Under the pieces are notes generated by a model, which was not told the DNA's origin, made no database searches, and was given only the letters and a program-made list of their open reading frames with translations. From the NCBI GenBank assembly GCA_964532005.1, contig CAZHER010000002.1, positions 8,813-72,812 on the forward strand: DNA of 64,000 nt. Direction: 5' to 3'. Positions 1 to 17,369 of this stretch are shown here, piece by piece (within the stretch, counting starts at the first letter, position 1; each line of letters starts with the position of its first letter). Both the position numbers and the translations under genes were made by a program. Origin of the DNA: an uncultured Candidatus Saccharibacteria bacterium (GTDB lineage Bacteria; Patescibacteriota; Doudnabacteria; UBA920).

Positions 1-341
1 TATCAAATCTCACTAAGCGCTTGACTTGAACTTGTGAAAAAGGCTTTCCTTGAGGAGTCATCATAATCACCCGACCACTAGGATTCTTTTTTTTCCAAGC
101 AGTAATAGCCTTGTACAACACGTCAGACCTCAAAACCATTCCCACACCACCTCCGTACGGCCTGTCGTCTACTGTTCCTCTGCGATCTAATCCATAGTCA
201 CGTAAATTTATAGCATCAAATTTTAAAAGTTTGTTTTTTATGGCTCTTTGGACAATTCCAAAAGATGCGTAATCTTGAACGAATTCAGGAAACAATGTTA
301 AAACTGCTATGGTTTTGGTAACAATTCTTTTCTTGGTCATT
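1..341 (-). CDS. trmD: tRNA (guanine37-N1)-methyltransferase TrmD, N-terminal part; 3' end lies beyond the window start
   Basis: The reverse-strand ORF starts with ATG at 339-341. Its translation, MTKKRIVTKTIAVLTLFPEFVQ...LRDYGLDRRGTVDDRPYGGGVGMV...MMTPQGKPFSQ, matches TrmD N-terminal motifs. It is absent from the ORF track because it is truncated by the window edge. Confidence 0.8.
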
Positions 342-404
342 TACATATAAATATTAACATAAAACCCGCAACCAGAGCGGTGCGGGTTTTATTAGTAATG
401 GAAA

Positions 405-782
405 TTAGAGTTTAAAATCGTCGTCGTCCATTGATACTACGTCGTCCTGAGAACCAGCTGAATCAGCACCTTCTCCTGAGGAGTGATCTGATTGCTGGGA
501 GTGGTTGGAACGGCCGTTGTGTCCGCGATGAGAACCTTCAGGTTCATTGATCTTCAAGTTAACGCGTGCTTTGTGCTTGGCGCCAACAACGCGGAGCAAT
601 GTACGAACAGCTTTTGCAGTCTGACCCATACGACCAATTACTTGGCCCATATCAGCAGGGTTGATGAACAGAGTAATAAGAACTCCCATTTCATCTACAG
701 TGCGTTCTGTACGAACATCATCTGGATTATCCACTAAGGATTTGACAATGTACTCAACAAATTCTTGATCTTGTTCTGGCAT
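405..782 (-). CDS. KH-domain RNA-binding protein (YlqC/KhpA-like), normally encoded next to rpsP/trmD
   Basis: The 125-aa product carries a GxxG-type KH motif (VIGRMGQTAKAVRTL) and a Ser/His/Asp-rich tail. Its position beside trmD matches the conserved rpsP-KH-(rimM)-trmD cluster. Confidence 0.75.
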   Translation of the reverse strand: MPEQDQEFVEYIVKSLVDNPDDVRTERTVDEMGVLITLFINPADMGQVIGRMGQTAKAVRTLLRVVGAKHKARVNLKINEPEGSHRGHNGRSNHSQQSDHSSGEGADSAGSQDDVVSMDDDDFKL

Positions 783-853
783 TATCTTAGATTTCCGTTG
801 TTTTGATATATTACTTACTTTCGACCTTTCTGAAAATTTTCTTTCCTGATGAT

Positions 854-882
854 ATTATAAGTAGCTTATTGTAGTGTGTCAA
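854..882 (-). promoter_or_regulatory. consensus sigma70-like promoter on the minus strand (TTGACA-17-TATAAT) driving the KH/trmD genes
   Basis: The reverse complement of 854-882 reads ttgaca cactacaataagctact tataat. It sits immediately downstream of the stop of the 352-aa surface-protein gene. Confidence 0.5.
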
Positions 883-890
883 TCTGCGAA

Positions 891-1506
891 TTAATTCCCC
901 TGTCCTTGGACAGTAATGGTTTTAGGAAGTCTTGTCTGGGGGGTAGAAAGCTGTCCTTGGGGAACAGCAGAAGTATTGCCAATAGTGAGGGTAACAGAAG
1001 AACCGCAGGCAATCTGGGAATTGGAGAAAGTGTAGGTCAGATTAGTATATTCACTGGTAGCAGAAAGGTTTTGAATGGGACCAGAGAACCCTCCGGTGCA
1101 AGTGGCAGACACAGTATAGGTAGGACTGGTACCTTTGAGGGTGTCAGTGGTGGCTGGAGTAATGGTCAAGTCAAATCCTGGAGGTGGAGGTGGGGTTGGA
1201 TTGACCACCAGCTGTCCAATACAATCATGAGTTTGTCCTCCTCCTGTTCCAGTGAAGGTTATGGTATATGTGTTGGCAGGTGTACTCCCTGTGGTAGACA
1301 CTGCAGCTGTGGTGGTGGCGTCTGGGAATTGATTGTTGTTGGAAAAGTTGATGGAAGGACCGTTGGCTACGTTGGGAACCACTGAGGCAGAGAAGTTTAC
1401 TTGAGAATTAAAGCCGTTTACTCCGGTGGTGGATAGGGCGTAGGTGGTTGCTCCTCCTACCACGATGGATTGGGTGGATGGAGAGCAGGAGAGGGTGAAG
1501 TCGGGA
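891..1506. repeat. direct repeat copy 1 (~616 bp), identical to 5827-6442
   Basis: The minus-strand protein and the antisense plus-strand ORFs 876..1385 and 5842..6321 give identical translations across this region. Two identical reading frames imply nucleotide identity. Divergence begins at 1507 (c) versus 6443 (t). Confidence 0.8.
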
Positions 1507-1949
1507 CCATTGGATACTACTGTAATGTCAACATTTCCATATATTGTTTCGCATTCTCCGCCTGAGTCAAAAATAGCCTCTATTTGTGTTGTAAAAGTGT
1601 AAGGAAAAGATGTGCCAGGAAAAGAAGTGGCGTCATAGTTCTGAGTTGCATATTCAGTTACTGATCCACCATTAGAGCACCAGTTTGTTCCTTGGTATAC
1701 GCTATCAAAACTTACACCTGAAGAACTGCTAACCACGGCAGGTTTACAAGCCCCGGCAAAAGGCCCGCGCATCTCCACTGTAATAGCGCCAGTTTGCCCA
1801 GCTGTTACTTCATACGGCCCTCCACACACTTCTTGAGCTTGGGCTTCCATAGTCGGTTGAATATCGAGGGTGATATTTATGAAAGAGAAAACAAACGAAA
1901 ACACCAAAGCCACTATGGCTAACTTAGTAGGTTTTTTAATTTTTTGCAT
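891..1949 (-). CDS. secreted repeat-domain surface protein, 352 aa; C-terminal ~205 aa identical to the paralog at 5827-6897
   Basis: It has an N-terminal signal peptide (MQKIKKPTKLAIVALVFSFVFSF). The Thr/Ser/Gly-rich beta-type repeat domain (DFTLSCSPSTQSIVVGG...GTGGGQTHDC) also occurs three times in the giant neighbour. The protein ends PPPPPGFDL...GQGN. Confidence 0.6.
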   Translation of the reverse strand: MQKIKKPTKLAIVALVFSFVFSFINITLDIQPTMEAQAQEVCGGPYEVTAGQTGAITVEMRGPFAGACKPAVVSSSSGVSFDSVYQGTNWCSNGGSVTEYATQNYDATSFPGTSFPYTFTTQIEAIFDSGGECETIYGNVDITVVSNGPDFTLSCSPSTQSIVVGGATTYALSTTGVNGFNSQVNFSASVVPNVANGPSINFSNNNQFPDATTTAAVSTTGSTPANTYTITFTGTGGGQTHDCIGQLVVNPTPPPPPGFDLTITPATTDTLKGTSPTYTVSATCTGGFSGPIQNLSATSEYTNLTYTFSNSQIACGSSVTLTIGNTSAVPQGQLSTPQTRLPKTITVQGQGN

Positions 1950-1985
1950 ATTTATAGATATCTAACAATGTTCCTTATTTTGATA

Positions 1986-4900
1986 TTAAGGAGCGATTTC
2001 GTTACGATCAGGATTACCGCTGGTATCAGTAAACTGATATAAAGGAGTTGAAACCATCTTGTCAGCCAAGTTAGTAGAGTCAATTATGGCTCTGTTTTGG
2101 AAGCGATAGAATGAACTAGTAGTACCAGGCTTAGTAACTTTGGCTGTAAAAGTAATACTGCAAGTTCCGCCGGCAGAGACATCGCCAACTGTAAAGTCTA
2201 CACCACCGGAAACAAGAGAATGACTACCAGCGCTACATCCGGAATAACTAATCCCGCTGACATCAGAAAGGTTGGTCAAGGTATCCCTTACCACAACTCC
2301 GGTAACAGGAGAGTCCCCACTATTACATACATTGATCTTGAACGTTACTAGATCACCCACTTTGAAAGATTTGTTGCCATTCAAAGTTACAGGCTCATGC
2401 TCTCCACTGCACGCCTGCGAGCTGCTACTCATACCAACAGGACTAACTGCAATAATATCCTTGTCGGAAGTAGAAAGATTTGGTGTACAAGGCCTTACAT
2501 ATACAGGACCGCCAGATTTCTTAGCAGATTCTGAAGCTCCATTCATAGCTGTTACTGCATAATAATAATTTCCGGTCGAAGGGGTATCTGTATAGGTTCT
2601 TGGCGAAGTCGGTAATGGGTCTGTAGTGTTAATATGAGTGCCCCAACTCGAACCGTCAGTAGAACGATATATTCTATAACCGGTAGGTGCAGGCCCTGAA
2701 CTTGGTGCGCTCCAAGTTATTAAAGCTGCTTGGCAAGCGGAAACATCAATAGACATTGAAGCTGGAGGCTCAGGCGACCCTGTAACATTAACAGTTATAC
2801 TATCGCTGGCACTGCCACCCGGGCCACTACAATCTACGGTGTAAGTTGTTGTGGAACTAAGAGACCCTGTTGACTGTGAACCGGAAATTCCAGTCCACCC
2901 TGCTGGGCTTACTGTACAAGAATTCGCATTGGTAGAACCCCAGTCTATGGTCGCACTACTGCCTGAGCTTATTGTGATATCACTAGAACTTCCGTCCGCA
3001 GTAATCCATGCGGTAGGAGGAGTATTGCCATTGATAGTGAGTTCGACTCCACCGGGACAGCTATGAGTTTTTCCACCGCCGGTGCCACTAAAGACAATTG
3101 TGTACGTGCCTGGAGCAGTCGAGCCATTTGTAGAAACCAACGCGCTGGTAGTTGCCGGGGGTACTTGGTTGTTGTTTGTAAAACTGACTGAAGGGCCGTT
3201 AGCAATATCAGGATCAATTGACCCGACGCTGAACTGCACCTGACTGGAAAATCCATTTACCGGAGTTGTTCTTAAGCTGAATACTGCTGTATCACCAACG
3301 GCAATAGATTGAGTTGCTGGCGTACATTCAAGGTCAAAATCTGGCGTTCCTGGCGGAACTACATTTACTGTTACATTATCTGTTGCGTCACCGCCTGTAC
3401 AAGTTACAACATATTCTGTAGTTGACATAAGTGATTTCTCAGTATAAGTACCTGAAGTACCTGTTTGGTCAATTGGGGTTACAATACAGTCGGTTGTATT
3501 TTCAGACCACCAATCTATAACCACTTCTGATCCCTCATCAACAGTAATTGAGCCACCTTGACCATTGGCTGTAATATTGGCTGTTGCAGATGCTATCGGA
3601 TCTACTATTAACTCAACTGAACATTGCTGGGTTTTACCGCCGCCGGTGCCGCTAAAGACAATTGTGTACGTGCCGGTTTGTGTTGAAGCATTTGTTAGGA
3701 CTAAAGCTGTGGTGGTTGCCGGAGGCACTTGGTTGTTGTTGGTAAAGCTTATTGAGGGCGGGTTCCCTACATCTGGATCCATAGAATAAACACTAAATTG
3801 CACCTGGCTATTAAAGCCGTTCATGGCTGTTGTTGAAAGACTGTATGATGTACTGCCACCAACTGTAATTGTCCTTGATGCAGGAGTGCAAACTAAAGTA
3901 AAATCAGGATTTGGATTAACGTTTACAATCACCGTGTCATTATCACTGCCTCCAGGGCCGGTACAGGTCAAGGTGTATATATATTGTGTATTTGTGAGAC
4001 TGCTTTGATCCTCACCAGGAGTTGGATAGTTATTTAAAGCTTTACTACCGCTCCAGTCCCCTGATGCTGTGCAAGAAGTTGCATTAGTAGAAGTCCACGT
4101 TAAATTAGCTGTACCGTTGTAGGCAACAGTTGTGCTTGGTCTGTCACCGTTTGCATACAAAGTCACTATTGGAGCGTCAAAACCGTCAATATCTAAAGTT
4201 ACTTGGCACTGATGACTTTTGCCACCGCCTGTAGCGGTAAATGTTATTGTGTACAAAGCTGGCGTTGTACTTCCAGTTGTACTTATTATGGCTGTTGTAG
4301 TTGCCGGAGGTACTTGGTTATTTCCTGAAAAACTAATCGAAGGGCCATTTGCCCCATTGTCGGGCAAGACTGATGAACTCACAGTCACAGCGCTATTAAA
4401 CCCGCCGTAAGCTGAAGTTGAAATTGCAAAAGATGTTGAGTCACCAACCGTGATTGTTCTTGTAGCTGGAGTACAAGATATAGCAAAATCGTTCCCCACA
4501 GTAACCACTACACTGTCAGAGTCGCTGCCTCCTGGGCCAGAACAATCCATGGTGTACGTGGTTGTTGTGGTTAATGGTCCTGTTGTGTTCGGTCCTCCGG
4601 AAGTACCGCTCCAACTTACACTGGGTGCTGGACTTGAGGTAACGGTACAAGACGTTGCATTGACAGATGTCCAACTAATTAATGCTGAGCTGTTATAGTC
4701 AATGTTGCAACTGTCAGCATCATTACACTTAATGTCAGCATTTGGACCAACAATTACTTGAACACTGTCATTGGCAGTACCGCCCGGGCCGGTACAGCTA
4801 AGGCTGTAAGTTGTGTTCGCTGTTAAATTACCTGTTGTCTGGGAACCTGAAGTTCCTGTCCAGTTTGAAGGAGCAACCGTACATGATGTTGCGTCTTGTG

Positions 4901-5810
4901 AACTCCAGGCAATAGTAGCAGAAGAATCATACGGTATAGTACATGTGTCATTTAAACCATTGCATGTGATACTTGCCTGTGGAACATTTGGATTTACAGT
5001 TAGAGTTACTGTCTTAACTGTAGTTGTTGCGCCACCATATCCGGTACATTGAATACTGTAGGTACCAGATGTATTTATACCAGTACTTTGTGTGTATGTT
5101 GTACCTGGGGTACTGCTCTTTGTTCCATTCCAACTACTGTTAGTAGGGTTAGAAGTGGCTGTACAAGCAGTTCCGCTTTGAGTGGCAGTTGGAGTCCAAG
5201 CCAAAGTTGCAGTTTGACCACTTTGAATGGTTGCGCTGCTGCCGCCGTTTATTGTCAGACTAACGTCAGGAGTATCATAAATTGCCAGTTCTGTTGTAGC
5301 GCTGTCATACAAAGGACCGCCATCAACTGTAATGCTTAAAAAAATTGAAGAACTTTCATCTCCGTAGTGAGGTGGGTTATCAGTGCATACATTCTCAAAA
5401 ACGCTTCCACTAAAAATGGCGTTGTCGTAAATTGCTGGGGCTGTCCAAATATTGGACATTCCCGGGTTAGGATTAGGTGAATAAGTATGTTCTGAATGTG
5501 TATAAGCACCGGAGACGTAATATCTGCCCATAGTAAAAGATGGGGTACCGGAAGTGGTCATTGTATATCGCACTACCGCTCCATAAGGAATTTGAATTTC
5601 ATACCCTCCGTCCATAGGATCACTTCCTATGTCAGTATAGTTACCAATGACTTGTCCAGTTGAGGTATTATAAAGTTCTAAATCTAAATCAATTCCGCTA
5701 CATAAATCGTTTGCTTGTGCTGGTTTGTCACTATAGAAGTAGAGCGCTGATGTCATGGCCACCACAGCTAAGGCGAGGAAAATTTTTATTTTTTGCATTT
5801 TATTTTTCAT
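1986..5810 (-). CDS. giant secreted surface protein (1274 aa) with three A+B Ig-like repeat units, an FN3 domain and a C-terminal DUF11-like domain
   Basis: It has a signal peptide (MKNKMQKIKIFLALAVVAMTSA). Repeat A (DFxLxCTPAxxxIxVGxxxxxxLxTxxxNGFxSxVxFS...NNQVPPATT...GTYTIxFxGTGGGKxH) occurs three times. Repeat B (W.S.NATSCT...W.G.SG....L...TTY...C.GPGG..D.V.V) occurs about six times. An FN3-like segment reads PTGYRIYRS...YYYAVTAMN. The C-terminal segment VGDLVTFKINVCNSGDSPVTGVVVRDTL resembles a DUF11/conserved-repeat domain. Confidence 0.65.
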   Translation of the reverse strand: MKNKMQKIKIFLALAVVAMTSALYFYSDKPAQANDLCSGIDLDLELYNTSTGQVIGNYTDIGSDPMDGGYEIQIPYGAVVRYTMTTSGTPSFTMGRYYVSGAYTHSEHTYSPNPNPGMSNIWTAPAIYDNAIFSGSVFENVCTDNPPHYGDESSSIFLSITVDGGPLYDSATTELAIYDTPDVSLTINGGSSATIQSGQTATLAWTPTATQSGTACTATSNPTNSSWNGTKSSTPGTTYTQSTGINTSGTYSIQCTGYGGATTTVKTVTLTVNPNVPQASITCNGLNDTCTIPYDSSATIAWSSQDATSCTVAPSNWTGTSGSQTTGNLTANTTYSLSCTGPGGTANDSVQVIVGPNADIKCNDADSCNIDYNSSALISWTSVNATSCTVTSSPAPSVSWSGTSGGPNTTGPLTTTTTYTMDCSGPGGSDSDSVVVTVGNDFAISCTPATRTITVGDSTSFAISTSAYGGFNSAVTVSSSVLPDNGANGPSISFSGNNQVPPATTTAIISTTGSTTPALYTITFTATGGGKSHQCQVTLDIDGFDAPIVTLYANGDRPSTTVAYNGTANLTWTSTNATSCTASGDWSGSKALNNYPTPGEDQSSLTNTQYIYTLTCTGPGGSDNDTVIVNVNPNPDFTLVCTPASRTITVGGSTSYSLSTTAMNGFNSQVQFSVYSMDPDVGNPPSISFTNNNQVPPATTTALVLTNASTQTGTYTIVFSGTGGGKTQQCSVELIVDPIASATANITANGQGGSITVDEGSEVVIDWWSENTTDCIVTPIDQTGTSGTYTEKSLMSTTEYVVTCTGGDATDNVTVNVVPPGTPDFDLECTPATQSIAVGDTAVFSLRTTPVNGFSSQVQFSVGSIDPDIANGPSVSFTNNNQVPPATTSALVSTNGSTAPGTYTIVFSGTGGGKTHSCPGGVELTINGNTPPTAWITADGSSSDITISSGSSATIDWGSTNANSCTVSPAGWTGISGSQSTGSLSSTTTYTVDCSGPGGSASDSITVNVTGSPEPPASMSIDVSACQAALITWSAPSSGPAPTGYRIYRSTDGSSWGTHINTTDPLPTSPRTYTDTPSTGNYYYAVTAMNGASESAKKSGGPVYVRPCTPNLSTSDKDIIAVSPVGMSSSSQACSGEHEPVTLNGNKSFKVGDLVTFKINVCNSGDSPVTGVVVRDTLTNLSDVSGISYSGCSAGSHSLVSGGVDFTVGDVSAGGTCSITFTAKVTKPGTTSSFYRFQNRAIIDSTNLADKMVSTPLYQFTDTSGNPDRNEIAP

Positions 5811-5826
5811 CTAAAAAATAGATTAA

Positions 5827-6442
5827 TTAATTCCCCTGTCCTTGGACAGTAATGGTTTTAGGAAGTCTTGTCTGGGGGGTAGAAAGCTGTCCTTGGGGAA
5901 CAGCAGAAGTATTGCCAATAGTGAGGGTAACAGAAGAACCGCAGGCAATCTGGGAATTGGAGAAAGTGTAGGTCAGATTAGTATATTCACTGGTAGCAGA
6001 AAGGTTTTGAATGGGACCAGAGAACCCTCCGGTGCAAGTGGCAGACACAGTATAGGTAGGACTGGTACCTTTGAGGGTGTCAGTGGTGGCTGGAGTAATG
6101 GTCAAGTCAAATCCTGGAGGTGGAGGTGGGGTTGGATTGACCACCAGCTGTCCAATACAATCATGAGTTTGTCCTCCTCCTGTTCCAGTGAAGGTTATGG
6201 TATATGTGTTGGCAGGTGTACTCCCTGTGGTAGACACTGCAGCTGTGGTGGTGGCGTCTGGGAATTGATTGTTGTTGGAAAAGTTGATGGAAGGACCGTT
6301 GGCTACGTTGGGAACCACTGAGGCAGAGAAGTTTACTTGAGAATTAAAGCCGTTTACTCCGGTGGTGGATAGGGCGTAGGTGGTTGCTCCTCCTACCACG
6401 ATGGATTGGGTGGATGGAGAGCAGGAGAGGGTGAAGTCGGGA
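5827..6442. repeat. direct repeat copy 2 (~616 bp), identical to 891-1506
   Basis: See copy 1. Both copies begin with ttaattcccctgtccttggacag. Confidence 0.8.
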
Positions 6443-6897
6443 TCGTTACTTGCCACTATAACATAGACATCATTACAGGTTAATGTACCAGACCAATCTG
6501 CCTGGATATCTACATAAACTGGGAGCGCATATGTTCCCGGAGTTATATTTGGGTCTACATCAAATTCCCATACATTTGTACCAGAACCAAATGTACTTGT
6601 AGGGTTATATGTTGTTGTAATCCCGCTTGGATAACTGGTTGGCCCTACATAAAACCAAGCCTGTCCTCCCCCTTCATTTGGAATCGGAGGGACAAATTCC
6701 CAAGCCCATGAAACTCCATAATGCTGACCTGGATCTGCATTCATACTGTCATTACCGACAGCTCCTAAACCTACTATGCATTGATATCCACCATTATCAG
6801 CTTGAGCGTTGTTTATTCCAACTACTGGGAATACAGAAAACACCAAAGCCAATAAGGTTAGTTTTATAATATTTTGAACATACCCTTTGGGTCTCAT
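5827..6897 (-). CDS. secreted surface protein, 356 aa; unique N-terminal domain plus the shared C-terminal repeat domain
   Basis: It has a signal peptide (MRPKGYVQNIIKLTLLALVFSVFPVVGINNAQA). The C-terminal ~205 aa are identical to the 891..1949 product. A 16-bp gap separates it from the giant gene, implying co-transcription. Confidence 0.6.
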   Translation of the reverse strand: MRPKGYVQNIIKLTLLALVFSVFPVVGINNAQADNGGYQCIVGLGAVGNDSMNADPGQHYGVSWAWEFVPPIPNEGGGQAWFYVGPTSYPSGITTTYNPTSTFGSGTNVWEFDVDPNITPGTYALPVYVDIQADWSGTLTCNDVYVIVASNDPDFTLSCSPSTQSIVVGGATTYALSTTGVNGFNSQVNFSASVVPNVANGPSINFSNNNQFPDATTTAAVSTTGSTPANTYTITFTGTGGGQTHDCIGQLVVNPTPPPPPGFDLTITPATTDTLKGTSPTYTVSATCTGGFSGPIQNLSATSEYTNLTYTFSNSQIACGSSVTLTIGNTSAVPQGQLSTPQTRLPKTITVQGQGN

Positions 6898-6918
6898 GGC
6901 TATGGTGCTTCTAAAATT

Positions 6919-7446
6919 TTACTTTTGTTGTGTAGATTTTTTTGCAGCGCCGACTCCAGAAGTATCTGTAAGTGTAATATCTACTGTTTTAACTTTGGTA
7001 ACACTATTCTCGTTCATATTGACTTGGAGTCTAGCATCGCCGTTGGTTCCTAACAAAGACTTAATAGTTGCTTCGTTCAGATTGCTTTCAATCTTCCAAC
7101 CGTTATTTTTCATATAATCTGAATAAATCTTGTAGTTAGCTTCTAAAGTCTTGGATGTTTCAAAAGTCCTGGTTGCTTGAAAACGGCCGTCTGCAGCAGT
7201 AGCATTGTAGTTCTGGGTAATCTTGGCCCCTTCTTCTATAGGAATATCTTTAGGGAACTTGTCTGGCACCTCTTTAGTAGGAATATTCTTCTTTTCGCTA
7301 ATTACAGGAGCTGGGGCGTTGTTTACTTGGCCGGATGGCTTTCTTTCAGTTTGAGAATATACCCAAATCAAAGCTGCAAATGCGAGAACGATTATACATA
7401 GCACTATGATGGCTGCGAAAGCCAAATGGTTTCGAATGTAGTTCAT
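6919..7446 (-). CDS. N-terminally membrane-anchored hypothetical protein (175 aa), first gene of the surface-protein cassette
   Basis: It has a single N-terminal TM segment (LAFAAIIVLCIIVLAFAALIWVY) followed by a hydrophilic domain. No motif was recognised. Confidence 0.45.
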   Translation of the reverse strand: MNYIRNHLAFAAIIVLCIIVLAFAALIWVYSQTERKPSGQVNNAPAPVISEKKNIPTKEVPDKFPKDIPIEEGAKITQNYNATAADGRFQATRTFETSKTLEANYKIYSDYMKNNGWKIESNLNEATIKSLLGTNGDARLQVNMNENSVTKVKTVDITLTDTSGVGAAKKSTQQK

Positions 7447-7503
7447 TTATTTTTATTAATTTTTATTAAGTTTTTATTTCGAAAAATAAATAATGTTATA
7501 TAT

Positions 7504-7532
7504 ATTGTAGCATATCTGGAGAAAAAAATCAA
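7504..7532 (-). promoter_or_regulatory. putative promoter (TTGATT-17-TGcTACAAT, extended -10) for the surface-protein cassette
   Basis: The reverse complement reads ttgatt tttttctccagatatgc tacaat. It lies between the rpsP terminator and the 175-aa gene start. Confidence 0.35.
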
Positions 7533-7543
7533 ATCTTTCCATT

Positions 7544-7575
7544 AAAAAAATCCGCTTTTCTATTAAAGCGGATTT
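7544..7575 (-). terminator. Rho-independent terminator downstream of rpsP
   Basis: On the minus strand the hairpin aaatccgcttt-aatag-aaagcggattt is followed by a U-run. Confidence 0.5.
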
Positions 7576-7590
7576 TCATTCCAAGAAAAA

Positions 7591-8076
7591 TTAAGCTTGT
7601 TCCGATTTAGCCTCTTCTTCTACAGCTACTTCTGGGCTGTTCTCTGGTTCCGAACTTGTTGTTTCTGTGGCTACTTCGGTCTCTACAGGTAGTGGCTCTG
7701 CTGTTTCGGCGACTTCTTCAGAAACTGACTCTACAGGAGCGGCTGCTGCGGCTTCGGCATCTGCCTTAGCTTTGGCTTCTTCTTCGGCTTTTTTTGCTCT
7801 TACTTTGGTAGGGATCAAAAAAGCGCGTTTTTTGTCTGCTTGTAAAAGATTTTTGCTAATCAGAAGGTTATTAAGTGTAGGAGATATAGAAACATGCTGT
7901 TCAACCCAATATTTCAAGCGGGCTTCATCTTTTACTGCAAATTCCTTTGTTCTAGGGTTATAATTTCCTAATATCTCAATAAATTTCTTATTAGCAGCTG
8001 CAGTACTTTCAGCCAATATTATGCGAAATTCGGGCTTATTCTTTTTTCCGGCGCGTTGTAAGCGAAGAGTTAACAT
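7591..8076 (-). CDS. rpsP: 30S ribosomal protein S16 with a ~75-aa Ala/Glu-rich C-terminal extension
   Basis: The product begins MLTLRLQRAGKKNKPEFRIILAESTAAANKKFIEILGNYNP, a typical S16 N-terminus. At 161 aa it is roughly twice the canonical length. Confidence 0.85.
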   Translation of the reverse strand: MLTLRLQRAGKKNKPEFRIILAESTAAANKKFIEILGNYNPRTKEFAVKDEARLKYWVEQHVSISPTLNNLLISKNLLQADKKRAFLIPTKVRAKKAEEEAKAKADAEAAAAAPVESVSEEVAETAEPLPVETEVATETTSSEPENSPEVAVEEEAKSEQA

Positions 8077-8147
8077 CTAATTGATTAAAAATGTATTAAT
8101 TAACTTTGATATTCTAGCACCAAACCATGCTTAGGTCAAGATTAAGC

Positions 8148-8759
8148 CTATTTATTGCGAAAATGCCTTATAATCCACCAAACAAGGAAAACAACTAGCA
8201 AAACCACTATCACGTAGTCTAGCCAATGGTATTGTTCTCTAACCGAAATCCAGGCTGTTCCCAATTTTGCTCCTAAATAAGCCAAAAAATAGCTCCACAA
8301 AAATGAACCAACAAAAGAATAAAAAAGGAATTTTCCAAAGTTTACTCTAGCAACTCCTGCTGGAACAGAAATAAATGTCCTAACCACTGGTAAAAGTCTG
8401 CCAATGAAGGAAGAAATTAAGCCAAACCGAGCGAAAAAACGGTCAGAAACTTCTAAATCATGATGAGAAACCAAAATATACTTGCCGTACTTTTGAATAA
8501 ATGGGCGACCGCCATATCTGCCAACTGCATATGTGACAGCAGAACCAATGGCACTACCAATTCCTCCTGCCAAGGCAACTCCAAACAATGTAAACCTTCC
8601 TTCGCTTACCAAAAACCCAGAAAAAGGCATTATAATCTCTGATGGTAAAGGAATAGCTGCAGACTCAATAGCCATTAGCAACGCAACCCCTGGATAGCCG
8701 GCAGAAGAAATTACATTAATAATGAAATTTGTCAGGGCCGAAATAATTTCAGAAATCAT
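8148..8759 (-). CDS. DedA/SNARE-associated (VTT-domain) membrane protein
   Basis: The motif GYPGVALLMAIESAAIPLPSEIIMPFSGFLV and the multi-TM profile fit the DedA family. Confidence 0.7.
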   Translation of the reverse strand: MISEIISALTNFIINVISSAGYPGVALLMAIESAAIPLPSEIIMPFSGFLVSEGRFTLFGVALAGGIGSAIGSAVTYAVGRYGGRPFIQKYGKYILVSHHDLEVSDRFFARFGLISSFIGRLLPVVRTFISVPAGVARVNFGKFLFYSFVGSFLWSYFLAYLGAKLGTAWISVREQYHWLDYVIVVLLVVFLVWWIIRHFRNK

Positions 8760-8768
8760 GCAGTAAAT

Positions 8769-11381
8769 TTATTTTGCAAAAGCAGTTGCCTGGTCAAATT
8801 TAATACTTAGCAACTTTGAAACTCCGTCATCGCCCATAGTCACACCGTACAGCATACTAGACTGTGCCATTGTTTCACGGTTGTGAGTAATGGTAATAAA
8901 TTGAGTTTGGTGGGCAAGCGTACCAAGAATTTGTCCGAAACGAATAGTGTTAGCTTCATCTAACGCAGCGTCAACTTCATCTAGCACCACAAAAGGGGAA
9001 GGGAAACACGACAACAAACTGCACAACAAAGCAATGGAGGTCAGTGCTCGTTCGCCGCCGGACAAAGCTTGAATAGTGGCAAGTTTCTTCCCTGGAGGGG
9101 TTGCTTTTATCTCTACACCTGCTACGTTCGTGCTCCCTTTTTCATATTTCGCTAAAAGTTTTTCTTCGGGACGCATTGTATTTTCTGTACTTTCGTCTTC
9201 TTTGTCTTCGTCTTGCTCAGCCTCTGGTTCTTCTTGTCCGCTACGAATTAAAGACAAATAAGCACGACCGCCATTGAACAAAGTCCGGAAGTATTGTTCA
9301 AATTGAGTTTGTACTTTGTGAAAAGCTTCATTGAAAGCTGTTTTAATATGCACATCCAATTCATCCATGACCGATTTCAGATCATCCATGGCTTTTTTCA
9401 AATCATCAACCTGCGAGGACAAGGAAGTATAGCGGTCTTCCGTTTCTCTATACTCCTGCATGGTCAATTCATCAATCCCGCCGATAAGTTCCAGCTGGTG
9501 TTTAAGTTTGTCGATTTTATTTTCCAAGTCAGGCTCTGCTTGTGATATCGGCTGAGTCTTAATTTCTCTAAGAATATCTTCTCCTAAAGAATGCAAAATT
9601 TCAGACTCTATTACTTCCAACGAAGATTCTTTTTTTGCTTTTTGAATTTGTATACCCCCTTCTCTATCGCGCATGACGCCAATGCGACCGCTGATTTCCC
9701 GGAACTTCCTGTCCGCTTCACTTATGGAAGTTTTAAACTCGGACTCAGCTTCATACAACCCCGCCAGCTCCTTTTGAAACGAAGAAATTTTTTCATTGAG
9801 CACGTCAATTTTTTGTTGGATGTTTTTTTCTTCACTCACTATTTGAGCTAAAAAGTCTTCTGATGAACCTGAGTCTGCCTGTTTTAACTCAAGATCTAAG
9901 CGCAGCTTTTCTTGCTCTAAATCTTTGAGCTGTTTGGTTAAAAAGTCTTCTGCCACCGCCAATTTTGACTGCTCTACCGCTATAGAGTTCAGTCCTGTGC
10001 TAAGGCTTTCTTTTTTTGCAGAGAGTTCTTGCAAAGTACTTTGCAAAAGTTTGGTCTGATCCGGCTGAATACTAATTTTTTTAGCGAGATCCCGAAATTC
10101 CGACCACTTCTGCCTAACAACTTGTCCTGCTTGTACAGCACTTGAAACATCGGGCATGTTCGGCAGTTCGGACCAAAAATTTTCTATCTGTCTGTCCACC
10201 GTATCAAACTCGTTTTGCAACTCCTCCCAACTTGTTCCAGAAGGCGCACTCAACTGAGAATAAATTTTTTCAATTGAGGAATTTATCTGTTCTATCTCAA
10301 TTTTGTGATTTTGTAGTTTTTCGGCCAAATCGGCATTGCTGACTTTTGCTTCCTTTAATTCCTTTTCCGTCTCTTCAATTTTTCTCCCGACCGTATGAGA
10401 TTCAACACGCAAGGTAGAACTGTCGCCAGCAGAACTTTTTTGGCTTTGCATCTTCCCGCGGACAAGACTAAGATTTTCCAGTAAGCCGTTTTTCTCATTT
10501 TGCAACAACTGCAACTCCGATTGACGGTTTTGGTATTTTCCAAGTTCTTGCAATCTTTTTTGCTCCAAACCTTCCATGTCTTGCATGTACCCTGACATTT
10601 CTTTTTCCATTGCCTCACGTTGGGACAAAACTCTGTTCAACTCTTGAGAAACCACAAGGGTTTCATTTTTTATTTGCCAAAAATTGTAACCCAAAAATTG
10701 CTTTTGATAACTCTTCAACTCAACTTGGATTGTTTCGCGTGCCTCCATTCTCTTAGCCTGCCTCCGCAAACTTTTTACCCGAGGCTCTAATTCAGAAATT
10801 AAATCTTCAGCGCGCATCAAATTTTGCGCCGTTTGTTCCATCCGCCTTAAAGTCCGTTCTCGTTTAATATAGTATGCCTTTACTCCGCTTGCTTCGTCTA
10901 TAAGATTTTTCACCTCTGCCGGTCCGGCCAAAATCATTTGGTCAATTGTTCCTTGACCTATCACGGTATATCTGGAAGTTCCAATATTACTTTTTAAAAC
11001 CAAGTCTACAATATCCAATAACCGGACTTTGTTGCCGTTTATTAAATATTCGCTTTCTCCGCTTCTGTTTATTCGACGGCCAATGCTGACTTCTGCTGAA
11101 TCAACAGGTATTCTTCTATCGCTGTTCTCGAAAGTGGCAAATACTTCTGCAAAATTCATTTTTGAACGCTTGTCGGAACCGGCAAAAATAACATCTTCAC
11201 TTTTTTTGCCGCGCATCAATTTGCTACTTTGTTCACCAACCACCCAACGTAAACAGTCGGCAATATTGCTTTTGCCGCTGCCGTTCGGACCTACTATCGA
11301 GGTCACTCCAGGTTGAAATTCTAGAATTGTATTTTTTGCAAACGATTTGAAACCTTGTATTTCCAATCTTTTTAGGTACAT
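8769..11381 (-). CDS. smc: chromosome segregation protein SMC, short 870-aa form
   Basis: The N-terminal Walker A reads LEIQGFKSFAKNTILEFQPGVTSIVGPNGSGKSNI. Long coiled-coil regions follow. The C-terminal signature and Walker B read LSGGERALTSIALLCSL...VVLDEVDAALDE. Confidence 0.85.
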   Translation of the reverse strand: MYLKRLEIQGFKSFAKNTILEFQPGVTSIVGPNGSGKSNIADCLRWVVGEQSSKLMRGKKSEDVIFAGSDKRSKMNFAEVFATFENSDRRIPVDSAEVSIGRRINRSGESEYLINGNKVRLLDIVDLVLKSNIGTSRYTVIGQGTIDQMILAGPAEVKNLIDEASGVKAYYIKRERTLRRMEQTAQNLMRAEDLISELEPRVKSLRRQAKRMEARETIQVELKSYQKQFLGYNFWQIKNETLVVSQELNRVLSQREAMEKEMSGYMQDMEGLEQKRLQELGKYQNRQSELQLLQNEKNGLLENLSLVRGKMQSQKSSAGDSSTLRVESHTVGRKIEETEKELKEAKVSNADLAEKLQNHKIEIEQINSSIEKIYSQLSAPSGTSWEELQNEFDTVDRQIENFWSELPNMPDVSSAVQAGQVVRQKWSEFRDLAKKISIQPDQTKLLQSTLQELSAKKESLSTGLNSIAVEQSKLAVAEDFLTKQLKDLEQEKLRLDLELKQADSGSSEDFLAQIVSEEKNIQQKIDVLNEKISSFQKELAGLYEAESEFKTSISEADRKFREISGRIGVMRDREGGIQIQKAKKESSLEVIESEILHSLGEDILREIKTQPISQAEPDLENKIDKLKHQLELIGGIDELTMQEYRETEDRYTSLSSQVDDLKKAMDDLKSVMDELDVHIKTAFNEAFHKVQTQFEQYFRTLFNGGRAYLSLIRSGQEEPEAEQDEDKEDESTENTMRPEEKLLAKYEKGSTNVAGVEIKATPPGKKLATIQALSGGERALTSIALLCSLLSCFPSPFVVLDEVDAALDEANTIRFGQILGTLAHQTQFITITHNRETMAQSSMLYGVTMGDDGVSKLLSIKFDQATAFAK

Positions 11382-11389
11382 ATGTCAGT

Positions 11390-12109
11390 TTATTTTTCTT
11401 TTGGCGGGGTTGGGTCTATAAATCTCAATTTTCTTAAAGCATCTTGAGCAGCTTCAATTTCTGCTTCTTGTTTGGAAGGCCCCTCGCCACGACCAATTTC
11501 TACGGTATCCATGAAAGCTGCAACAACAAAAATCTTATTGTGATCTGGACCGGTTTCTTGGACCACTCCATATGTTGGAGTGACCCCTTTTTTGTCCTGC
11601 ACCAATTCTTGCAAACGACTTTTCGGATCCAAATATGTACCACCCTCAATTATATTTGGCAACTCTACTAATATTTCTTTTGTAATAAATTTCTGGGCTG
11701 CTTCGTAGCCTGCATCCAAATAGATTGCGCCGATTAGCGCCTCGATGCAATTGGCCAAAATAACTTGTCGGGCTCGACCAGTGTCGCGAGCCTCACCCTT
11801 GGACATCAATAAAAACTGTTCCAAACCCAGACGATTGGCAATGGCAGAAAGCATTTTATAGTTTACCAAGGCACTACGAAAATTTGTAAGTTCGCCTTCG
11901 GAGTGATCGTAATTCTTATACAAAAACTCTGTGGCGATAATTTCCAAAACCGCGTCTCCTAAAAATTCTAGACGCTCATTATGGGGCAGATGGAACGACC
12001 GATTTTCATTCAGATAAGACCGATGGGTAAATGCTGAAATAAATAAATCAATATTATTGATCCGGGTTCCTAAAATATTTTCTAATGTTTCCTGATTTAA
12101 GCTTGGCAT
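11390..12109 (-). CDS. rnc: ribonuclease III
   Basis: The RNase III signature ERLEFLGDAVLE is followed by a C-terminal dsRBD. Confidence 0.9.
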   Translation of the reverse strand: MPSLNQETLENILGTRINNIDLFISAFTHRSYLNENRSFHLPHNERLEFLGDAVLEIIATEFLYKNYDHSEGELTNFRSALVNYKMLSAIANRLGLEQFLLMSKGEARDTGRARQVILANCIEALIGAIYLDAGYEAAQKFITKEILVELPNIIEGGTYLDPKSRLQELVQDKKGVTPTYGVVQETGPDHNKIFVVAAFMDTVEIGRGEGPSKQEAEIEAAQDALRKLRFIDPTPPKEK

Positions 12110-15886: not shown

Positions 15887-16312
15887 CTAAGAGCCCGTGG
15901 TTAGCTGATTCGTCAAAGCTGTCACTATTACATAAGAAAGTATGACTATCGCCAGTCCGAGCAAGGCATACACCAAAGTCTGGCGACCTTTGGTTGCCTG
16001 CTCTTCATTTCCTCTAGAAGTCAAATAATAGTAACCCCCGATTACTAGAAACAAAACAGCAATAATGCCGGCAAAATAAAGCATTATTTTAATAATCGTG
16101 CCTATAAGTCCTGTTGCGGTTGTTTGTGCAGCCAGGCTGTTGGTCGAGTTTCCAAATGGATTTTTAGGTACACAAAGCGGACCCTGTTCCTCAAACTCAC
16201 CGCAAGGACTGGTAGCGCCTTGTGCTGATGCCACAGAGACAAACACCCCGGTAGTACCAATTAATACAAATCCCAAAAACAAAACGGTAACAAATTTCTT
16301 GAAATTATTCAT
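15887..16312 (-). CDS. TrbC/VirB2-like (T4SS-type) pilin paralog 1
   Basis: It has a signal peptide and a conserved C-terminal core IIKIMLYFAGIIAVLFLVIGGYYYLTSRGNEEQATKGRQTLVYALLGLAIVILSYVIV. The GG(Y)xY(I/L)TSxGNEE...GK motif is shared by all five paralogs. Confidence 0.6.
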   Translation of the reverse strand: MNNFKKFVTVLFLGFVLIGTTGVFVSVASAQGATSPCGEFEEQGPLCVPKNPFGNSTNSLAAQTTATGLIGTIIKIMLYFAGIIAVLFLVIGGYYYLTSRGNEEQATKGRQTLVYALLGLAIVILSYVIVTALTNQLTTGS

Positions 16313-16315
16313 AAA

Positions 16316-16774
16316 TTACGGTCCGTTACGATTATTAGTTGATGTATTGGAAGAGCCAGTTCCATTTTTAACAAATCCTACAACAGCTCTTACTATTACA
16401 AACGATAGAATTATTATCACTATGCCTATTAAGGCATAAAGAATGGTTTGTCGTCCCGAAGTAGCTTTCTCTTCATTACCAGCGGAGGTAATATACTGAT
16501 AGCCACCGTAAATCACCATAATTACTGCCACCGCAAAAGCAATGCCCAACATTATATTTATTATCTGCCCTAAAACTTCACTGGGGGTTTTCTTATCGCT
16601 AAAAACCGTGTCGGGATACGCGTCGCCGGTAGCGGTTTTTAACTTGTCCAAACCTTCGGTCACACTATCTGCATGAACAAATACTGCAGGCGACATTGCA
16701 ATTGCAAAACTTGCTGCAAAACCGACAGCCAATAAAGCTAATGATCTAAAAATACTTGATTTGCTCATATACAA
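16316..16774 (-). CDS. TrbC/VirB2-like pilin paralog 2
   Basis: It has a signal peptide and the core IYGGYQYITSAGNEEKATSGRQTILYALIGIVIIILSFVIV. Confidence 0.6.
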   Translation of the reverse strand: MYMSKSSIFRSLALLAVGFAASFAIAMSPAVFVHADSVTEGLDKLKTATGDAYPDTVFSDKKTPSEVLGQIINIMLGIAFAVAVIMVIYGGYQYITSAGNEEKATSGRQTILYALIGIVIIILSFVIVRAVVGFVKNGTGSSNTSTNNRNGP

Positions 16775-16859
16775 TTTATAATCCTAGACTTTCAAGAATT
16801 TCAAAACTATAAAAACCTAGGACTAGCCCGCACTTTTTAAGGTGCGGGCGGAAATTTTG

Positions 16860-17270: not shown

Positions 17271-17369
17271 CCCCTTCCTTGATTACACAAACCTTAGGCT
17301 AACAGGGCTTGTGAAAGATAGCTATTTAATAAAATTGCTAATTTAACGATACCATACTTTGGCAAATTC

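What the first reader, a model, noticed from the sequence alone, without database searches (positions are those of the whole stretch)
854..7590. Surface-protein cassette inserted into the conserved rpsP-KH-trmD ribosome-biogenesis cluster
In most bacteria rpsP, the KH-domain gene, (rimM) and trmD form one contiguous operon. Here rpsP (7591-8076) ends with its own terminator (7544-7575). A new promoter (7504-7532) then drives four genes encoding a membrane-anchored protein, two secreted proteins and a 1274-aa surface protein (6919-7446, 5827-6897, 1986-5810, 891-1949). After the cassette, the KH gene and trmD restart from a perfect TTGACA-17-TATAAT promoter (854-882). This layout is what I would expect from an insertion of an accessory surface module into a core operon. 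rimM is also absent.
Basis: partly seen in the sequence, partly recalled or inferred. Interest (0 to 1): 0.7.

Follow-up and report, generated by a model that had tools for sequence, protein, structure and literature searches.

The report
Old, fast-changing surface-protein operon beside rpsP
The four surface-protein genes between rpsP and the KH gene are real, but they are an old, fast-evolving adhesin-like operon shared by a whole clade of ultra-small (CPR/Patescibacteria) bacteria and lying between genes that already had their own predicted promoters and terminators, not a recent insertion that split a core operon.

Summary

- **Shared by relatives.** Homologous cassettes of 2 to 8 genes fill the same rpsP|khpA junction in at least 11 other related Patescibacteria genomes. 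Six relatives have rpsP directly next to khpA. One carries an unrelated giant protein at that junction.
- **No foreign composition.** Third-codon-position GC and synonymous codon usage of the cassette match the host. The higher overall GC comes from amino-acid composition.
- **Flanking signals are older than the cassette.** The rpsP terminator and the strong khpA promoter, with a conserved 70-nt leader, also occur in relatives that lack the cassette. A hairpin plus extended -10 box precedes trmD everywhere. The cluster is therefore predicted to be several transcription units already.
- **rimM** is missing across the lineage, whatever the cassette state.
- **Cassette content.** One membrane-anchored protein has a confidently predicted Mog1/PsbP/DcrB-like domain. 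Three proteins carry signal peptides and Ig-like repeats. The largest ends in FN3, a CLIPPER (DUF11) domain and a conserved tail.
The two mid-size genes share a 618-bp, 100% identical 3' half behind unrelated, anciently distinct head domains, which points to gene conversion.

Function (adhesion, with the small protein as partner) is inferred.

The parts
8111..8139 (-). Promoter-like site for rpsP: TTGACC-17-TAGAAT with a TG extended -10
   Evidence: 10 of 12 matches. Its -10 box ends 34 nt upstream of the rpsP ATG.
7591..8076 (-). rpsP (ribosomal protein S16) with an Ala/Glu/Pro-rich C-terminal extension of about 80 aa
   Evidence: PF00886, E 2.6e-12.
7544..7576 (-). Intrinsic terminator of rpsP: AAAATCCGCTTT...AAAGCGGATTTTTTT
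   Evidence: An equivalent hairpin plus T-run follows rpsP in all 15 relatives examined, with or without the cassette.
7504..7532 (-). Cassette promoter: TTGATT-17-TACAAT with a TG extended -10
   Evidence: Identical in the closest relative, L092. Several other relatives show a TGnTAnAnT-like box at the same place by my reading of the sequences.
6919..7446 (-). P1: 175-aa protein with an N-terminal membrane helix and an extracytoplasmic Mog1/PsbP/DcrB-like domain (precomputed Pfam PF27226, weak hit)
5827..6897 (-). P2: 356-aa protein with a signal peptide, a unique head (about residues 34-150) and a stalk of two Ig-like modules (A and C)
   Evidence: The same head type occurs in L092 (86% identity) and L104 (40%).
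5825..6442 (-). Copy A of the 618-bp, 100% identical direct repeat (3' half of P2 plus 2 nt)
1986..5810 (-). P3: 1274-aa protein with a signal peptide, a head, nine Ig-like modules (order B B B A B A B A B), FN3, a CLIPPER/DUF11 domain (residues 1146-1250; DNA 2061-2375) and a conserved C-terminal tail ending ...GNPDRNEIAP
   Evidence: (PF01345, 39.6 bits against a cut-off of 24.6).
891..1949 (-). P4: 352-aa protein with a signal peptide, a head unrelated to that of P2 (BLASTP E 2.7) and a stalk identical to that of P2
   Evidence: The same head type occurs in L103 (59% identity, E 1.5e-38).
889..1506 (-). Copy B of the 618-bp identical repeat. It ends 2 nt past the P4 stop codon, 6 nt before the -35 box of the khpA promoter.
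   Evidence: Independent SPAdes contigs break inside this copy (L001 ends near window 1387; L004 starts at window 987).
854..882 (-). khpA promoter, a perfect TTGACA-17-TATAAT
   Evidence: The best promoter match ends about 60-95 nt before the khpA ATG in 18 of 19 relatives, scoring 10-12 of 12, including relatives without the cassette; L012 is weaker and farther (9 of 12, 128 nt). L103 also shows such a box by eye.
783..853 (-). Conserved khpA 5' leader with an invariant GGTC core inside the near-invariant AAAGGTCGAA motif, enclosed by complementary arms
   Evidence: No Rfam family matches.
405..782 (-). khpA (KH-domain RNA-binding protein)
   Evidence: PF13083, E 1.4e-21. 83-100% identical across relatives.
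361..390 (-). Hairpin plus T-run after khpA (terminator or attenuator)
   Evidence: -12.5 kcal/mol. My script scored a hairpin in 19 of 21 relatives; L013 and L015 also show one by eye.
351..359 (-). Extended -10-like box TGTTAATAT, 10 nt upstream of the trmD ATG, implying a near-leaderless trmD mRNA
   Evidence: Read from the sequences. Several relatives show a similar TGTTAnAnT box at the same place.
1..340 (-). 5' part of trmD, which runs off the window. The source contig continues with rluD-like, rplS, RNase Y and ymdB.

Best explanation
Positions 891-7446 are a four-gene operon for exported cell-surface proteins. It belongs to a clade-wide, fast-evolving 'surface-protein island' that has sat in the intergenic gap between rpsP and khpA since before the two sampled cassette-bearing subclades diverged, in a lineage of small-genome Patescibacteria (730-940 kb contigs).

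Shown:
- Homologous cassettes of 2 to 8 genes (about 4 to 16 kb) fill the same gap in related genomes.
- Each cassette lies between an rpsP terminator and a khpA promoter-plus-leader that also exist in relatives without a cassette. The cassette therefore occupies a boundary between units already predicted to be separate.
- Its composition is native.

Inferred mechanism:
- An extended -10 promoter at 7532-7504 drives P1-P2-P3-P4 as one mRNA. The gaps between genes are 16-36 nt and no terminator lies between them.
- P2, P3 and P4 are exported through Sec.
- P3 is a fibrillar, adhesin-like protein. A variable head sits on a stalk of Ig-like modules, and its base is FN3 plus a CLIPPER domain (possibly isopeptide-locked) plus a conserved C-terminal tail with the pattern F-x6-P-x-R-x-E.
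- P1 is the membrane-anchored partner (dock or assembly factor) of such tailed proteins. P1-type genes open each unit of the cassette and match the number of tailed proteins in six genomes (four others carry one extra).
- P2 and P4 display two anciently distinct heads on one stalk. Gene conversion keeps that stalk identical over 618 bp.
- The likely role is attachment to host cells or other surfaces.
- Because the window lacks the terminator that relatives have after the last cassette gene, cassette transcription probably runs on into khpA.
For: Same-site cassettes:
- Searches show rpsP-to-khpA start-to-start distances of 4.6 to more than 16 kb in ten genomes, against 0.53-0.62 kb in six.

Phylogeny (neighbour-joining tree of KhpA+TrmD+RluD+L19, 300 bootstraps):
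- Cassette-bearing genomes group together in 193/300 replicates.
- Their two subclades are recovered in 300/300 and 295/300.
- They separate from five cassette-less genomes in 299/300.

Native composition.

Ancestral flanking signals.

Proteins:
- Pfam CLIPPER/DUF11 hit above its cut-off. The function of CLIPPER domains in adhesin stalks is described in PMC12617251.
- FN3 confirmed against PDB sequences.
- Module map.
- Conserved C-terminal module and tail in 13 proteins and 5 more.
- P1 fold and family size.

P1-to-tailed-protein ratios (the JGI contig's 1155-aa protein is taken as tailed by analogy, since no DNA was available): 1:1 in the window, L087 and the JGI contig; 2:2 in L089 and L090; 3:3 in L103; 3:2 in L104; 2:1 in L006, L008 and L009. 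The stop of a P1-type gene overlaps or abuts the start of the next gene in L006, L008, L089 and L090.

Gene conversion:
- The two 3' halves are identical over 618 bp with a sharp boundary.
- The two heads show no similarity to each other.
- Each head type is found separately in distant genomes.
Against: - No expression or protein data exist. All promoters, terminators and signal peptides are sequence predictions.
- No known cell-wall sorting signal is present (no LPXTG and no C-terminal membrane helix), so how the proteins stay on the cell is unknown.
- The P1 fold is generic. Its best structural match, PA1624, has no known function (PMC7716261).
- The P1-to-tail link rests on gene neighbourhood only. 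Some P1-type genes precede proteins of about 500 aa that have no tail.
- Monophyly of the cassette-bearing genomes has only 64% bootstrap support, and the tree is midpoint-rooted. A single gain and repeated loss cannot be told apart.
- AlphaFold on the P3 C-terminal region without an alignment failed (pLDDT 46.6), so the isopeptide geometry is untested.
- The exact identity of the two repeat copies could partly reflect collapse of the copies during assembly.
Confidence: 0.7

Rival explanations
1. One reading: an accessory surface module was recently inserted by horizontal transfer into a contiguous rpsP-KH-(rimM)-trmD operon. The insertion split the operon, and a new promoter had to arise to restart KH-trmD.
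For: - Overall GC of P2-P4 is 0.44-0.47, against 0.40 for the other genes in the window.
- Some relatives have rpsP next to khpA.
- In most non-CPR loci fetched, a RimM-like ORF lies directly upstream of trmD: 53 of the 57 candidate ORFs extracted there matched E. coli RimM.
Against: - Homologous cassettes sit at the same site in at least 11 other related genomes, down to about 63% TrmD identity.
- The GC excess lies only at second codon positions (0.53-0.58). GC3 and synonymous codon usage are typical of the host.
- Relatives without the cassette have the same terminator, promoter and leader.
- No integrase, no tRNA and no flanking repeats mark the borders.
- rimM is absent across the lineage.
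Confidence: 0.04
2. The direction is reversed. A surface-protein locus at the rpsP|khpA junction is ancestral to the whole group sampled here, and the six 'empty' genomes lost it.
For: - L018, which branches outside the cassette clade, also has a giant surface protein at this junction (an F5/8 type C domain protein of 1298 aa).
- L012, which is empty, groups with the cassette clade.
- The tree is only midpoint-rooted, and the node has 64% bootstrap support.
Against: - The L018 protein shares no detectable similarity with P1-P4.
- Five empty genomes form one well-supported clade (299/300), so a single gain is at least as parsimonious.
- More distant Patescibacteria have the KH gene abutting trmD (L040, L063), and L040 also has rpsP directly upstream of the KH gene.
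Confidence: 0.2
3. The cassette encodes structural envelope components, such as an S-layer-like coat or a cell-wall scaffold, rather than adhesins. It sits beside ribosomal genes because it must be expressed in proportion to growth.
For: - It is conserved at one site across a whole clade.
- Its promoter sits next to highly expressed genes that point the same way.
- P1 is much better conserved than the large proteins, as expected for a housekeeping assembly factor.
Against: - Head domains and gene number vary strongly even between close relatives. L087 has 2 genes and the window 4, and P1 is only 32% identical to that of L087. That pattern fits proteins that face a partner or host better than a scaffold.
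- CLIPPER domains are typical of the stalks of fibrillar adhesins (PMC12617251).
Confidence: 0.15
4. The layout is an assembly artefact: a chimeric join through the 618-bp repeat.
For: Repeats of this length break short-read assemblies. The SPAdes and Logan contigs of the same organism do break there.
Against: - All four unique junctions are each covered by independent contigs: P2 head to repeat, repeat to P3, P4 head to repeat, and repeat to khpA promoter (L001, L002, L004, L005).
- The only other path through the assembly graph would need a circular P3-P4 element.
- Relatives have P3-like or P4-like genes directly upstream of khpA (L087, L088, L006 and others).
Confidence: 0.03

Closest known systems
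Fibrillar adhesins with CLIPPER (DUF11) stalk domains (PMC12617251)
   Same: - A long protein with a signal peptide, a distinct N-terminal head and tandem Ig-like stalk modules.
- A CLIPPER domain scoring above the Pfam cut-off.
- Candidate Lys / Asp-or-Glu / Asn positions (SDKD, xDTL, RFQN), largely conserved across 13 homologues.
   Different: - Only one CLIPPER domain, placed at the C-terminal base rather than repeated along the stalk.
- No recognised sorting or anchor domain (no LPXTG, OmpA-like or T9SS domain).
- Instead there is a conserved C-terminal tail with the pattern F-x6-P-x-R-x-E and a co-encoded Mog1/PsbP-like membrane protein.
- The host is a CPR bacterium. No paper in the searched library combines 'Patescibacteria' with 'fibrillar adhesin'.
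rpsP-(khpA/ylqC)-rimM-trmD-rplS ribosome-biogenesis operon of E. coli, Bacillus and Streptococcus (from general knowledge)
   Same: The gene order rpsP ... khpA - trmD ... rplS is kept.
   Different: - rimM is absent.
- An rluD-like gene lies between trmD and rplS.
- Predicted terminators and promoters separate rpsP, khpA and trmD in all relatives.
- A cassette of 4 to 16 kb occupies the rpsP|khpA gap in one clade.
Hypervariable 'replacement' islands for surface structures that sit at a fixed site between conserved core genes, such as O-antigen or capsule loci (from general knowledge)
   Same: - A fixed chromosomal position flanked by very conserved genes (KhpA is 83-100% identical across relatives).
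- The content encodes surface-exposed molecules.
- Gene number and alleles differ between relatives. One lineage (L018) carries an unrelated occupant.
- P1 similarity does not follow the core-gene tree: 32% to the near relative L087, 54% to the distant L103.
   Different: - The cassette encodes proteins, not polysaccharide synthesis enzymes.
- Exchange between strains by recombination in the flanking genes has not been shown here.
Concerted evolution by gene conversion of paralogous surface-protein genes (from general knowledge)
   Same: Two neighbouring paralogues have identical stalk-coding 3' halves (618 bp, 100%) and unrelated head-coding 5' halves, with a sharp boundary between the two.
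   Different: - There is no archive of silent copies and no sign of programmed switching.
- The repeats are direct, so recombination between them would delete P3 and the P4 head rather than invert anything.
Mog1/PsbP/DcrB-like extracytoplasmic domains (PA1624, DcrB, SciW/Eag chaperones, LpqN, Mtc28)
   Different: Sequence identity is only 8-9%. No function can be transferred, and PA1624 itself is uncharacterised (PMC7716261).

Membership tests
Classical rpsP-khpA-rimM-trmD-rplS operon | Contiguous gene order rpsP, KH gene, rimM, trmD, rplS | tested here: not met
   Four genes (6.6 kb) lie between rpsP and khpA. rimM is absent. rluD lies between trmD and rplS on the source contig.
Classical rpsP-khpA-rimM-trmD-rplS operon | Co-transcription from one promoter upstream of rpsP | not testable with these tools
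   Sequence predicts the opposite: a terminator after rpsP, a promoter and leader before khpA, and a hairpin plus extended -10 box before trmD, in all relatives. No transcript data are available.
CLIPPER / DUF11 domain (PF01345) | Profile match above the curated cut-off | tested here: met
   P3 residues 1146-1250 score 39.6 bits against a cut-off of 24.6. TIGR01451 scores 28.4 against 24. Orthologues in L087, L089 and L009 also match.
CLIPPER / DUF11 domain (PF01345) | Intramolecular isopeptide triad (Lys, catalytic Asp/Glu, Asn) in a CnaA-like fold | tested here: inconclusive
   Candidate K (SDKD; nearly invariant), D/E (xDTL; variable) and N (RFQN; nearly invariant) columns are seen in alignment A6. 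The single-sequence AlphaFold model was unusable (pLDDT 46.6). PMC12617251 notes that some DUF11 domains lack the bond.
Fibrillar adhesin | Signal peptide, tandem stalk repeats and a distinct terminal head domain | tested here: met
   The N-terminal regions end in AQA. There are nine Ig-like modules plus FN3 plus CLIPPER. The heads are unique. The signal peptides are judged by eye only.
Fibrillar adhesin | Recognised cell-surface anchor (sortase motif, OmpA-like domain, or similar) | tested here: not met
   No Pfam or NCBIfam anchor domain matches. The C-termini are hydrophilic (...NPDRNEIAP and ...TITVQGQGN).
Fibrillar adhesin | Demonstrated binding to a surface or host | not testable with these tools
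   This needs experiments.
Horizontally acquired genomic island | Deviant composition or codon usage | tested here: not met
   GC3 is 0.32-0.40, against 0.362 with sd 0.042 for the other genes. Codon-usage z-scores run from -0.43 to +0.52.
Horizontally acquired genomic island | Mobility genes, a tRNA target or flanking repeats at the borders | tested here: not met
   The region holds no integrase-like ORF. The nearest tRNA is at 12118. The only long repeats are internal to the cassette.
Horizontally acquired genomic island | Patchy presence among close relatives | tested here: not met
   Every relative with TrmD identity of 67% or more has cassette genes there wherever the contig reaches the junction. 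At 62-66% identity both states occur, and the empty genomes lie outside the cassette-bearing group in the tree. L086, at 83% identity, is uninformative because its contig starts inside khpA.
PF27226 (AF_1845-like) family, for P1 | Profile match | tested here: inconclusive
   A precomputed hit is listed as 'weak' for P1 and unmarked for homologues in L090 and L103. The local Pfam copy lacks this model.
Mog1/PsbP/DcrB-like fold, for the P1 ectodomain | Structural superposition with family members | tested here: met

The most novel reading that the evidence does not exclude
The P1-type membrane protein and the conserved FN3-CLIPPER-tail module (tail pattern F-x6-P-x-R-x-E) together form a previously undescribed, sortase-independent system for anchoring or assembling surface fibrils in CPR bacteria. 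It is encoded in a replaceable island at the rpsP|khpA boundary. Swapping of head domains, gene conversion and gain or loss of units in that island tune host specificity. In the same region, khpA carries an undescribed structured leader RNA.
Probability: 0.2. Interest if true: 0.65.

Novelty: new variant of a known kind. Interest (0 to 1): 0.35.

Why it matters
How ultra-small CPR/Patescibacteria cells recognise and hold on to their hosts is largely unknown. This locus supplies a concrete set of candidate surface proteins that recurs at one fixed site across a clade.

- **Candidates to test.** There is a conserved small partner protein (P1) and a conserved base module, both of which can be tested. 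The variable heads are natural candidates for specificity determinants.
- **Caution for synteny-based inference.** In this lineage the textbook rpsP-trmD 'operon' keeps its gene order but appears, from sequence, to be broken into separately signalled units. A cassette lying between two of its genes therefore need not have disrupted anything.
- **Limit.** As an example of an insertion into a core operon the finding is ordinary, and the recent-insertion reading is contradicted.

Tried and rejected
- **Word-indexed homologue search with the P3 C-terminal 259 aa** returned nothing, probably because of low-complexity words. I built the alignment from the fetched loci instead.
- **AlphaFold on that region without an alignment** gave pLDDT 46.6 and was not used. 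External homologues could not be submitted to the predictor.
- **The metagenome scan for P1 relatives** kept only 7 loci, mostly short. It added one more rpsP-P1-P1 case (L099).
- **The local Pfam and NCBIfam libraries** gave nothing useful for P1, P2 or P4.
- **RNAalifold on a MAFFT alignment of the khpA leaders** found no consensus structure because the loop lengths vary. Single-sequence folds and a rule-anchored pair count were used instead. I did not build a covariance model.
- **The C-terminal-module HMM** did not reach E 0.01 on large proteins next to P1 homologues in two other metagenome contigs (L098, L102). The P1-to-tail link outside this locus is therefore unproven. By eye, L098 does end with an RFQN...F...P...E.P-like tail.
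- **A second AAGGTCGAAA in the window** (46128) lies inside a small ORF and was dismissed.
- **Cluster look-up** gave no organism names. The taxonomy rests on record titles ('Candidatus Saccharibacteria', 'Candidatus Doudnabacteria', 'Patescibacteria group'), which disagree below phylum level.
- **Literature searches** found nothing on rpsP/trmD synteny in CPR or on fibrillar adhesins in Patescibacteria.

Full report
**1. Observation**

All genes in 1-12000 lie on the minus strand.

- The ORF table and Pfam confirm rpsP (7591-8076; S16), a KhpA-type KH gene (405-782) and the start of trmD (340 downward).
- Between rpsP and khpA are four ORFs at exactly the stated coordinates: P1 (6919-7446, 175 aa), P2 (5827-6897, 356 aa), P3 (1986-5810, 1274 aa) and P4 (891-1949, 352 aa).
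- The hairpin plus T7 run after rpsP (7576-7544) is present in the sequence.
- The promoter-like site at 7532-7504 (TTGATT-17-TACAAT with TG) and the perfect TTGACA-17-TATAAT at 882-854 are both found by the consensus scan. The latter is the only 12/12 match in 9 kb.
- An HMM built from 53 RimM proteins of other fetched loci finds nothing in the window.

**2. Source and reliability**

- The same organism occurs in three assemblies: an 86.7-kb scaffold with the same layout, plus SPAdes and Logan contigs.
- Those contigs break exactly at a 618-bp direct repeat, 889-1506 = 5825-6442, which is 100% identical.
- All four unique junctions around the repeat are covered by independent contigs, so the layout is not a chimera.
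- TrmD homologues and record titles place the organism in the Patescibacteria (CPR). The labels disagree below phylum level.

**3. Is it an insertion?**

I fetched 80 loci around TrmD relatives and several contigs of closer relatives. I located the window's proteins in them with tblastn.

| State of the rpsP\|khpA junction | Genomes |
|---|---|
| Homologous cassette, both ends seen | L087, L006, L008, L009, L089, L090, L103, L104, and a 730-kb JGI contig with gene calls only |
| Cassette genes seen, contig-limited | L092, L099, L007, L011, L014, L088 |
| rpsP directly next to khpA (526-619 nt start to start) | L010, L012, L015, L016, L017, L019 |
| Unrelated 1298-aa F5/8 type C protein | L018 |

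- Where both ends are seen, the rpsP-to-khpA start-to-start distance is 4.6 to more than 16 kb and the cassette holds 2 to 8 genes.
- In a neighbour-joining tree of KhpA+TrmD+RluD+L19, the cassette-bearing genomes group together in 193 of 300 bootstraps. Their two subclades are recovered in 300/300 and 295/300. They separate from five empty genomes in 299/300.
- Overall GC of P2-P4 is raised (0.44-0.47 against 0.402 with sd 0.028), but only at second codon positions (0.53-0.58), which reflects a Thr/Ser/Gly/Pro/Ala-rich composition.
- GC3 is 0.32-0.40, against 0.362 with sd 0.042. Synonymous codon-usage z-scores run from -0.43 to +0.52. Both are typical of the host.
- The borders carry no mobility genes, tRNA or flanking repeats.

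The cassette is therefore an old feature shared by a clade.

**4. Did it split an operon?**

- Every relative examined, with or without a cassette, has a hairpin plus T-run immediately after rpsP.
- All but one of 19 have a strong -35/-10 pair (10-12 of 12 matches) whose -10 box ends about 60-95 nt before the khpA ATG. L012 is weaker and farther out (9 of 12, 128 nt). L103 shows the same box by eye.
- In the empty genomes the terminator is followed directly by this promoter.
- Between the promoter and khpA lies a conserved leader with the core AAAGGTCGAA.
- After khpA, a conserved hairpin plus T-run is followed in many relatives by a TGTTAnAnT box 10-15 nt before trmD (window 390-351).
- rpsP also has its own promoter-like site (8139-8111).

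On sequence evidence the cluster is a row of separately signalled units in this lineage. The cassette lies in the gap between a terminator and a promoter. The 'restart' promoter is ancestral, and rimM is missing in all relatives.

Other junctions of the cluster also accept genes:
- NUDIX between khpA and trmD in L090.
- DUF2784 between trmD and rluD in L088.
- A 363-aa gene at that same junction in L104.

**5. What the cassette encodes**

*P1*
- It has an N-terminal membrane helix and a well-conserved domain of about 100 aa.
- AlphaFold with 35 homologues gives pLDDT 89.
- The family is large: 2065 clusters at 50% identity.

*P3*
- It has a signal peptide, a head, nine Ig-like modules of two types, an FN3 domain (PDB sequence hit 3mpc, E 1.3e-6) and a CLIPPER/DUF11 domain.
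- CLIPPER is a CnaA-like stalk domain of fibrillar adhesins that often carries an intramolecular isopeptide bond (PMC12617251).
- The C-terminal 260 aa, including a terminal F-x6-P-x-R-x-E tail, are conserved in 13 proteins from relatives and in five more. The N-terminal parts vary.

*P2 and P4*
- Each has a signal peptide, a head of about 110 aa and a two-module stalk.
- The two heads are unrelated to each other (E 2.7).
- Each head type recurs in distant genomes: the P4 type in L103 (59% identity), the P2 type in L104 (40%) and L092 (86%).
- Identical stalks behind anciently distinct heads, with a sharp boundary, indicate gene conversion rather than a recent duplication.

*Organisation*
- P1-type genes open each unit of the cassette. 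Their number equals that of the tailed proteins in six genomes; four others carry one extra (1:1, 2:2, 3:3, 3:2, 2:1).
- The stop of a P1-type gene overlaps or abuts the start of the next gene in four genomes.
- No copies of these modules occur elsewhere in the 64-kb window.

**6. Mechanism (inferred)**

- One mRNA starts from the extended -10 promoter.
- P2-P4 are exported through Sec.
- P3 forms a fibril-like adhesin.
- P1 acts as the membrane-tethered partner of the tailed proteins.
- The variable heads determine binding specificity.

In the window the P4 stop codon lies 8 nt from the -35 box of the khpA promoter. L088, L089, L090, L007, L009, L014, L103 and L104 have a hairpin plus T-run in the same upstream stretch. 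Transcription of the cassette therefore probably continues into khpA here. The repeat ends 2 nt past the stop codon, so the conversion or deletion event may have removed the old terminator.

None of this has been tested experimentally. No known anchor motif is present.

**7. Comparison and verdict**

- The proteins resemble fibrillar adhesins with CLIPPER stalks. They differ in having a single basal CLIPPER domain, no known anchor, and a conserved tail with a partner gene.
- The locus behaves like a hypervariable 'replacement' surface island at a fixed site between conserved genes. That comparison rests on general knowledge, and exchange between strains has not been shown.
- P1 similarity does not track the core genes: 32% to the near relative L087, 54% to the distant L103. 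That hints at turnover of paralogues or at exchange.

The finding is real. Its reading as a recent insertion into a core operon is contradicted. It is a new variant of a known kind, of moderate interest.

Noticed in passing
window 783-853 (minus strand); same position upstream of khpA in L006-L019, L087-L090, L103, L104: A conserved 5' leader of about 70 nt lies between the khpA promoter and the ATG. Its core is AAAGGTCGAA, enclosed by two nested helices. The inner helix reads GGCT/AGCC in 13 genomes and AGCT/AGCT in 4, which is a compensatory change. The outer helix reads GATAG(C)/(G)CTATC, with GATAGG/CCTATC in L012. Some genomes carry extra inserted hairpins. No Rfam family matches. It may be an undescribed regulatory RNA of the khpA unit. 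In the window's own subclade the outer helix is degenerate.
   Followed up: partly
window 351-390 (minus strand); all relatives: A conserved hairpin plus T-run directly follows khpA. In many relatives a TGTTAnAnT extended -10 box then lies only about 10-15 nt before the trmD ATG. This suggests that khpA is a separately terminated or attenuated unit and that the trmD mRNA is nearly leaderless.
   Followed up: partly
window 889-1506 and 5825-6442: A 618-bp, 100% identical direct repeat forms the 3' halves of P4 and P2, flanking P3. Recombination between the copies would delete P3 and the P4 head. Short-read assemblies break here. In the closest relative, the L092 contig also ends at the point where the repeat would begin.
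   Followed up: yes
window 883-893: No terminator lies between the last cassette gene and the khpA promoter; the stop codon is 8 nt from the -35 box. Relatives have a strong hairpin plus T-run in the same upstream stretch.
   Followed up: yes
L018:5586-9482: One relative carries an unrelated 1298-aa protein with an F5/8 type C (galactose-binding-like) domain at the same rpsP|khpA junction. It has its own perfect TTGACA-17-TATAAT promoter. The junction therefore seems to attract genes for large surface proteins repeatedly.
   Followed up: partly
L090:9558-10001; L088:1915-2289; L104:17349-18440; L087:12083-12493: Small lineage-specific genes have been inserted at other junctions of the same cluster: NUDIX between khpA and trmD, DUF2784 or a 363-aa gene between trmD and rluD, and a glyoxalase-family gene after rplS.
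   Followed up: no
window 7591-7850 (C-terminal half of rpsP): S16 carries an Ala/Glu/Pro-rich acidic C-terminal extension of about 80 aa. Relatives also have extended S16 proteins of 122-174 aa.
   Followed up: no
P1 homologues: window 6919-7446, L087:5583-6095 and L103:10001-10474: P1 is only 32% identical to the P1 of the near relative L087 (TrmD 75%) but 54% identical to a P1 of the distant L103 (TrmD 68%). This does not follow the core genes and suggests turnover of paralogues or exchange of cassettes.
   Followed up: partly
window 15887-17822: Four tandem small genes are annotated with PF18895 (T4SS_pilin) in the precomputed calls for the source contig. They lie next to ftsH.
   Followed up: no
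window 51100-51453 and 52632-52798: There are two tight tRNA clusters: Gly-Phe-Val-Leu and Leu-Cys. The window holds 12 tRNA genes in all and no rRNA.
   Followed up: no
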